From Eledone cirrhosa (lineage: Eukaryota): DNA of 64,000 bases. This document shows, piece by piece, positions 25,084 to 25,178 of the stretch. The notes under the pieces were generated by a model. That model saw only the letters and a list, made by a program, of their open reading frames with translations, had not been told where the DNA came from and searched no databases. The translations under genes were made by a program, and so were the position numbers. Numbering within the stretch: position 1 is the stretch's first letter; the number at the start of each line of letters is the position of its first letter. The DNA lies in NCBI GenBank assembly GCA_964016885.1, contig OZ024740.1, positions 103,664,001 through 103,728,000 of the forward strand, given 5' to 3'.

Positions 25084-25178
25084 GTCCAGCAGAAGCAAGG
25101 GGTACAATCGTGGATGCTCATTTCGAACTGAATTGGTTCTCATCAGCACGATCCCTCCCACTCTTGCAACTGCTGGAC
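25084..25178 (-). ncRNA. Type I HHR with long stem I, sense to the CaMKII pre-mRNA
   Basis: GUCCAGCAG..GCAAG..GGG AUCGUG-CUGAUGA-GAAC CAAUUCA GUUC-GAAAU-GAGC-AUC-CACGAU UGUA CCC CUUGC..CUGCUGGAC. Confidence 0.88.

What the first reader, a model, noticed from the sequence alone, without database searches (positions are those of the whole stretch)
25084..25178. Near-canonical hammerhead on the sense strand of a CaMKII intron, ~530 nt after a hub exon
Seen: intact core, 4-bp stem II with loop CAAUUCA, and a long stem I (6+3+5+9 bp) with an internal loop containing UGUA. It is on the same strand as CaMKII. Known: loop II to stem I bulge contacts give fast cleavage (Schistosoma HHR), and intronic ribozymes occur in RECK (HHR) and in the memory gene CPEB3 (HDV-like). 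Inference: it could cut CaMKII pre-mRNA co-transcriptionally and influence splicing of the hub C-terminus. Caveats: stem III is only 2 bp, and the motif sits in a ~300-bp TA-flanked insert, so it is probably mobile in origin.
Basis: partly seen in the sequence, partly recalled or inferred. Interest (0 to 1): 0.75.

Follow-up and report, generated by a model that had tools for sequence, protein, structure and literature searches.

The report
Solo retrozyme copy in CaMKII intron
The hammerhead-shaped sequence in this CaMKII intron is real, but it is one aged, single copy of a common 342-base repeat that is scattered through the genome, so it is likely a passenger, predicted to cut slowly, rather than a regulator of CaMKII.

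Summary
Observation confirmed. A type I hammerhead with a complete core lies at 25084-25178 on the minus strand, which is the CaMKII sense strand (Rfam RF00163 32.9 bits, cut-off 34). The predicted cut is at 25113/25112, 594 nt into a 39.5-kb hub intron.

It sits inside a 304-bp solo copy of a ~342-nt repeat with 2,381 candidate places in this genome. The family forms tandem dimers, folds strongly, ends in microsatellites and shows Penelope-type truncations, inversions and tails. This is a non-LTR retrozyme.

The family keeps a palindromic stem III (AUGCGCAU or AUGCAU), the mark of dimer cleavage. This copy has lost the palindrome (AUGAGCAU) and has no partner. The ribozyme is no better conserved than the rest of the copy (3/95 vs 9/177 changes, p=0.55). 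Seven hammerheads lie in the 264 kb around.

A regulatory role is not excluded: cleavage was not measured and no usable RNA reads were found. The scan found the same kind of element before on other DNA (e1-8834885; e1-8665316).

The parts
24944..25247 (-). Solo copy (304 of ~342 nt) of a non-LTR retrozyme repeat; lacks ~38 nt of the unit and has only one hammerhead
   Evidence: matches at 84-93% across many contigs; tandem unit 337-344 nt; no second copy in the 264 kb examined
25084..25178 (-). Type I hammerhead ribozyme motif with long interrupted stem I
25140..25146 (-). Core CUGAUGA (C3-A9)
   Evidence: sequence
25125..25139 (-). Stem II (4 bp) and loop CAAUUCA; last loop A (25129) kept in 58 of 60 copies; A at 25133 is G in 51 of 60
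25114..25124 (-). GAAA and stem III segment AUGAGCAU (2 bp + tetraloop); family forms are the palindromes AUGCGCAU or AUGCAU
25112..25113 (-). Predicted cleavage site after AUC (C17 = 25113), 594 nt into the intron
   Evidence: hammerhead numbering from established knowledge; cleavage not measured
25103..25106 (-). UGUA in the 3' strand of stem I: U1.7 (25106) is invariant in 60 of 60 copies; the A (25103) is C in 53 of 60
24884..24943 (.). (TA)n-rich run at the element's 3' end, the likely target site
   Evidence: 37 of 51 family loci end in a dinucleotide repeat
25248..25254 (.). Short (TA)n at the element's truncated 5' end
25707..25801 (-). CaMKII hub (association domain) exon, 95 nt, upstream of the ribozyme; GT donor at 25706
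   Evidence: next exon starts at G000:C1:103650196 in phase, so the intron is 39,510 nt
30047..30127 (-). Preceding CaMKII hub exon (approximate limits from a weak Pfam match, E 0.81)

Best explanation
This is a single, 304-bp copy of a ~342-nt hammerhead repeat family (a non-LTR retrozyme) lying in a TA repeat of a CaMKII intron, likely pasted there by a Penelope-type enzyme and likely a passenger that is predicted to cut slowly. Shown: the family, its tandem unit, its end structures, the intact core and this copy's three substitutions in the ribozyme. Inferred family mechanism: tandem copies are transcribed, two hammerheads pair through their palindromic stem III segments and cut out a ~342-nt monomer, and a Penelope-like RT/endonuclease copies that RNA into microsatellites. 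Inferred for this copy: it has no neighbouring hammerhead and a broken palindrome, so only the weak monomer route (2-bp stem III, AUC triplet) is left. CaMKII pre-mRNA would then be cut rarely, or in a way that splicing tolerates.
For: Family: 2,381 first-look candidates, 40 scored, the other 39 best places 85-93% identical. In 12 of 30 loci fetched with a tandem query, two cores stand 337-344 nt apart. Four natural monomers are 37-39% GC and fold as circles at z -2.6 to -5.9. Penelope marks: 40 of 42 one-armed loci end at one of two sites ~35 nt apart; 7 of 9 two-armed inverted loci use one site on each arm; 37 of 51 loci end in a dinucleotide repeat against 12.9% background. PMC8557442 passages describe the same marks. 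Ribozyme under selection in the source elements: G2.1-C1.1 is swapped to C-G in 16 of 60 copies, and a 2-nt indel keeps the palindrome (15 AUGCGCAU, 12 AUGCAU; 17 more are CpG-decay forms). This copy: 3/95 changes in the ribozyme vs 9/177 outside, p=0.55. Its 8-mer self-duplex is -2.6 kcal/mol vs -10.5 for AUGCGCAU. The dimer is favoured over two monomers in 4 of 6 AUGCGCAU copies and 0 of 11 others, this copy at +5.0. Base rate: 7 hammerheads in 264 kb, 5 antisense and 2 sense to CaMKII; 42-44% of Xenopus retrozyme copies are intronic (bioRxiv 10.64898/2026.07.22.740005, passages).
Against: All 11 core bases, U1.7 and the last loop II A are intact here, and only 3 of 28 near copies have as few changes in the ribozyme (that set was chosen for likeness to this copy). 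A 2-bp stem III with a tetraloop is the usual invertebrate form, and coral and mussel monomers cleave at ~0.8 and ~0.1 per min (PMC7229834 Results), so monomer activity is plausible. The monomer folding penalty (8.5 kcal/mol) ranks 8th of 17 copies, not among the worst, and the energy model ignores tertiary contacts and had no positive control. The conservation test has little power with 12 changes. No autonomous partner element was identified. No circular RNA or expression was seen.
Confidence: 0.82

Rival explanations
1. The copy is an active monomeric ribozyme that cuts much of the CaMKII pre-mRNA, but splicing across the cut intron goes on, so it is active yet neutral.
For: Core and contact bases are intact. 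The polymerase must run 38.9 kb more to the next exon, about 10 min at the mammalian rate quoted in PMC10919898, long enough for a 0.1 per min ribozyme. That paper reports, citing Fong 2009, that slow intronic ribozymes did not affect splicing.
Against: Broken palindrome and no partner. The lowest-energy fold pairs G2.1-C3-U4 with the stem III loop. An AUC triplet was the least efficient during transcription in a viroid hammerhead (PMC1636495 abstract).
Confidence: 0.1
2. The copy has been co-opted, like the CPEB3 or RECK ribozymes, to tune full-length CaMKII output by cutting the hub intron.
For: Sense orientation, intact core, few changes in the ribozyme, and a place upstream of the last two hub exons. 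CPEB3 is a precedent for intron cleavage racing splicing.
Against: No excess conservation. The copy differs by 4.4% from its nearest relatives, whereas the best-kept intron piece differs by about 11% in four related species, so the insertion is likely younger than that split. Hammerheads are common at this locus. RECK and CPEB3 ribozymes are isolated and conserved across many species.
Confidence: 0.04
3. The copy is the broken pseudo-LTR end of an autonomous Penelope-like element, not a retrozyme.
For: Truncated, inverted and tailed insertions in microsatellites are Penelope marks.
Against: Units join head to tail at 337-344 nt with nothing between. The RT-like frames in the flanks of the 60 loci vary from locus to locus, and the two Penelope-like ones (L022, L041) lie beyond the 3' end. 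The hammerhead is full-sized, whereas Penelope ends carry minimal ones.
Confidence: 0.04

Closest known systems
Metazoan non-LTR retrozymes (coral, mussel, axolotl; Cervera and de la Pena 2020, PMC7229834; read: passages and Results parts 1-2 of 3)
   Same: Type I hammerhead in a 150-450-bp, low-GC, non-coding, highly paired tandem unit. The two stem III forms here mirror axolotl HHR_Amex2 (2 bp + tetraloop) and HHR_Amex1 (1 bp + palindromic tetraloop).
   Different: A different, lineage-specific sequence. Mostly solo copies and partial dimers in the loci seen. This copy is a monomer with one hammerhead. Circular RNA is not shown.
Animal retrozymes as non-autonomous Penelope derivatives (Li, Clavereau, Pollet 2026, bioRxiv 10.64898/2026.07.22.740005; read: part 1 of 5 and passages)
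   Same: Solo monomers dispersed over chromosomes, many in introns; Penelope link.
   Different: Their 'active' class needs two consecutive units with hammerheads, which this copy lacks. The word 'mollus' does not occur in that text.
Penelope-like element insertions (Craig et al. 2021, PMC8557442; read: passages)
   Same: 5' truncation, partial tandems, inverted 5' arms, a 30-40-bp tail at one end, (TA)n targets.
   Different: No RT/GIY-YIG frame in the unit; partner element not identified.
Schistosoma Sm-alpha hammerhead / Rfam RF00163
   Same: Same core and type I layout; U1.7 and a terminal loop II A for the Hoogsteen contact (PMC11875169 passages); 32.9 bits.
   Different: Below the 34-bit cut-off; stem III has two mismatches to the model and the triplet is AUC instead of GUC.
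Conserved intronic ribozymes of RECK (hammerhead) and CPEB3 (HDV-like) (PMC6155905 and PMC10919898; read: passages)
   Same: Sense-strand ribozyme motif in an intron, far ahead of the next exon.
   Different: Those are isolated and conserved across birds/mammals. This one is a repeat copy with no sign of constraint.

Membership tests
Type I hammerhead ribozyme | Core CUGAnGA / GAAA / UH with stems I-III, stem I open | tested here: met
Type I hammerhead ribozyme | Rfam RF00163 gathering score (34 bits) | tested here: not met
   32.9 bits, E 6.9e-7 in 181 bases; a near miss caused by stem III
Type I hammerhead ribozyme | Bases for the loop II-stem I contact (terminal loop II A, U1.7) | tested here: met
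   present; kept in 58/60 and 60/60 copies. The contact itself was not modelled.
Type I hammerhead ribozyme | Covariation supporting the stems | tested here: inconclusive
   90.3% of cells paired; one clear two-sided change (2.1-1.1, 18 cells), likely a single event between subfamilies
Type I hammerhead ribozyme | Self-cleavage | not testable with these tools
   needs an in vitro assay; no raw RNA reads were offered
Non-LTR retrozyme (the repeat family) | Tandem units of 150-450 bp, each with a type I hammerhead | tested here: met
   12 of 30 loci with two cores 337-344 nt apart (loci chosen with a tandem query)
Non-LTR retrozyme (the repeat family) | Low GC, non-coding, strongly self-paired monomer | tested here: met
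   GC 37-39%, circular fold z -2.6 to -5.9 in 4 of 4 monomers; no shared coding frame in 60 loci
Non-LTR retrozyme (the repeat family) | Expressed as linear and circular monomer RNA | not testable with these tools
   no RNA run of this species was listed
Active retrozyme locus (this copy) | Two consecutive units with hammerheads | tested here: not met
   solo 304-bp monomer; no second copy in 264 kb
Penelope-mobilised element | 5' truncation, inverted arms, 30-40-bp tail, microsatellite target | tested here: met
   7 of 9 two-armed loci with one short and one long end; 37 of 51 end in dinucleotide repeats
Penelope-mobilised element | Autonomous partner sharing the 3' end | not tested
   only the 1.5-kb flanks of 60 loci were inspected
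Domesticated intronic ribozyme (RECK/CPEB3 kind) | Ribozyme more conserved than surrounding sequence | tested here: not met
   3/95 vs 9/177 changes, p=0.55; low power
Domesticated intronic ribozyme (RECK/CPEB3 kind) | Present at the orthologous place in related species | tested here: inconclusive
   no contig bridged the site
Domesticated intronic ribozyme (RECK/CPEB3 kind) | Effect on host mRNA maturation | not testable with these tools
   needs a minigene or antisense block

The most novel reading that the evidence does not exclude
The core-intact hammerhead has about 39 kb of transcription time and cuts CaMKII pre-mRNA ahead of the last two hub exons. It does so alone or by pairing in trans with the family's own RNAs (7 of 8 stem III pairs, -4.8 kcal/mol), so retrozyme activity in neurons would set the level of holoenzyme-forming CaMKII.
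Probability: 0.05. Interest if true: 0.7.

Novelty: new member of a known kind. Interest (0 to 1): 0.17.

Why it matters
As read here it is ordinary: one more retrozyme family in a genome full of them, with one copy in a long intron. It has small value as a test case. The family has two stem III forms that both keep a palindrome, which suits a monomer-versus-dimer cleavage comparison. A sense-strand copy 39 kb ahead of the next exon of a memory gene also asks how animals tolerate intronic ribozymes. If it did cut CaMKII RNA in neurons, it would be an invertebrate parallel of the CPEB3 ribozyme built from a young repeat.

Tried and rejected
Related species: contigs of organisms C, D, E and F (runs X5, X8, X7, X13) covered only 25461-25545 and nothing of the element at 80-85% likeness. 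No contig joined across the insertion, so an empty site is not shown, and a part without cover is no proof. Organism B (X4) holds the repeat family but not the unique flank. Polymorphism: two RAD-seq runs of other individuals (X21, X22) did not cover the unique flank, and the likely source sample (X1) showed no joint skipping the whole insert among the joints listed (7 not shown). Read starts and ends near 25108-25116 in X22 come from a DNA RAD library and are not cleavage evidence. Copy number: an exact 34-base pattern found 11 places, a lower bound of little use for a family 4-10% diverged. Rfam over 15 kb returned mostly microsatellite matches to microRNA models and no hammerhead. Core versus non-core decay across copies: 3.9% vs 6.9%, p=0.06, and the rows were pre-filtered for a near-intact core, so it was not used. 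Pairing of the conserved intron piece with the hub exon: 83 of 200 shuffles did as well, rejected. Absolute folding probabilities (3.7e-7 for the active fold) were not used as evidence, for lack of a positive control. Rows dropped: L018 from the alignments; 13 of 30 loci without the exact core pattern; 9 duplicate loci. Ferbeyre 1998 and Fong 2009 were not held; Fong is cited second hand. The paper search with 'hammerhead ribozyme', 'octopus', 'cephalopod' and 'intron' listed 20 of 292 papers, none describing such a family by title or abstract start. That is no proof that it is unpublished, and supplements were not read.

Full report
Observation. On the minus strand, 25178-25084 reads as a type I hammerhead: stem I, CUGAUGA (25146-25140), stem II GAAC/GUUC with loop CAAUUCA, GAAA, the segment AUGAGCAU and C17 at 25113. 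Rfam RF00163 matches at 32.9 bits against a cut-off of 34, E 6.9e-7, in a 181-base search; wider scans missed it. CaMKII runs on the minus strand. Pfam CaMKII_AD matches four exons in order. The exon at 25801-25707 encodes [31 protein letters not shown], and the next exon begins in phase at G000:C1:103650196. The intron is thus 39,510 nt, with the predicted cut 594 nt from the donor and about 38.9 kb from the acceptor. The regulatory-segment exon lies near window +194 kb, so the gene exceeds 210 kb. Earlier scan notes call this genome a cephalopod; I did not test that.

What it is. The motif lies in a 304-bp insert (24944-25247) between TA runs. A search of the own genome gave 2,381 candidates; of 40 scored, the 39 others matched at 85-93%. 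Many carry a further ~38 nt and a truncated upstream copy. With a tandem query, 12 of 30 loci held two hammerhead cores 337-344 nt apart, so the unit is about 342 nt. Four natural cut-to-cut monomers are 37-39% GC and fold as circles at z -2.6 to -5.9. These are the features of non-LTR retrozymes in PMC7229834 (Results parts 1-2 read). Among 51 distinct loci, 40 of 42 one-armed copies end at one of two sites about 35 nt apart. Seven of 9 inverted two-armed loci use one site per arm, and 37 of 51 run into a dinucleotide repeat against 12.9% of random flank positions. PMC8557442 describes these marks for Penelope-like elements (passages). The idea of testing the two end sites came from earlier scan notes. 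No partner element was identified.

The family's ribozyme. In 60 aligned copies, 90.3% of cells pair. The one clear compensatory change is G2.1-C1.1 (25 copies) to C-G (16). The stem III segment is AUGCGCAU in 15 copies and AUGCAU in 12, both perfect palindromes, and 17 more are CpG-decay forms of the first. A 2-nt indel that keeps the palindrome points to dimer cleavage (inference). The two forms mirror axolotl HHR_Amex2 and HHR_Amex1, which cut 22% and 6% in an hour as monomers and much better as dimers. U1.7 is kept in 60 of 60 and the last loop II A in 58 of 60; these two bases make the Hoogsteen contact seen in the Schistosoma structure (PMC11875169 passages).

This copy. It differs from the majority of its nearest relatives at 4.4% of sites: 3 of 95 in the ribozyme and 9 of 177 outside, p=0.55. 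The three are 25133 (loop II), 25118 (centre of the palindrome) and 25103 (the A of UGUA, which breaks a G-C pair of the family's second stem I helix). Its 8-mer self-duplex is -2.6 kcal/mol against -10.5 for the family palindrome. The dimer fold is favoured in 4 of 6 AUGCGCAU copies and in none of 11 others, this copy included (+5.0). No second copy lies in 264 kb. Its lowest-energy fold pairs part of the core with the stem III loop. Against a dead ribozyme: the core is whole, the monomer penalty is middling (8th of 17), the energy model lacks tertiary contacts, and coral and mussel monomers cut at 0.8 and 0.1 per min. The AUC triplet was the least efficient during transcription in a viroid hammerhead (PMC1636495 abstract).

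Is the CaMKII setting special? A simple descriptor found 7 hammerheads in 264 kb, 5 antisense and 2 sense, and none in controls. Between the exons I located there are four, and this is the only sense one. In Xenopus 42-44% of retrozyme copies are intronic. An 85-nt intron piece at 25461-25545 is held by four other species with 9 substitutions and 3 gap letters, and their contigs run on unlike beyond it. The copy's 4.4% distance from its family is smaller, so the insertion likely postdates that split (inference). Orthologous presence and polymorphism could not be settled, and no usable RNA data were found.

Mechanism. Shown: family, unit, end structure, intact core, lost palindrome, solo state. 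Inferred: dimer cleavage of tandem transcripts, Penelope-driven insertion at (TA)n, then neutral decay. For the host gene, PMC10919898 (passages) reports that fast intronic ribozymes abort splicing and slow ones do not. With ~39 kb still to transcribe, a fast ribozyme here would remove the last two hub exons from most transcripts, which would likely be costly. Its persistence therefore favours slow cutting or tolerance (inference).

Verdict. A real hammerhead motif and a new member of a known kind: a solo retrozyme copy, likely a passenger (0.82). Active but neutral 0.10, co-opted regulator 0.04, Penelope end 0.04. Interest 0.17.

Noticed in passing
window 25461-25545: An 85-nt intron stretch ~160 nt past the hub exon is held at ~89% identity by single contigs of four other species; possibly a conserved splicing or editing element. 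It does not pair with the exon better than shuffles.
   Followed up: partly
window 21025-21085 and 34807-34867 (+): Two copies of a second hammerhead family, antisense to CaMKII, with a 5-bp stem I and stem III segments AUACAUAU / AUAUAUAU; likely Penelope-type minimal motifs.
   Followed up: partly
window 3865-3935 (+); L078 (window +205269 +, +205757 -, +210321 +): A third hammerhead type with an 8-bp AU-rich stem I; three related copies cluster in L078, two of them divergent and ~500 nt apart.
   Followed up: no
window 24600-24770: Another repeat fragment just past the element's 3' TA run; high depth in X1 and X4.
   Followed up: no
window 10124-10179 (-) and 32629-32686 (+): Partial tRNA-like matches (30 and 28 bits), probably heads of tRNA-derived SINEs.
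   Followed up: no
L022 and L041 flanks: Reading frames that look like Penelope-type reverse transcriptase (by recalled motifs) lie beyond the 3' ends of two family copies; not joined to the unit.
   Followed up: no
L048 and L055 (G000:C2:306917184 and 306922284): Two nearly identical dimer loci 5.1 kb apart, suggesting a local duplication.
   Followed up: no
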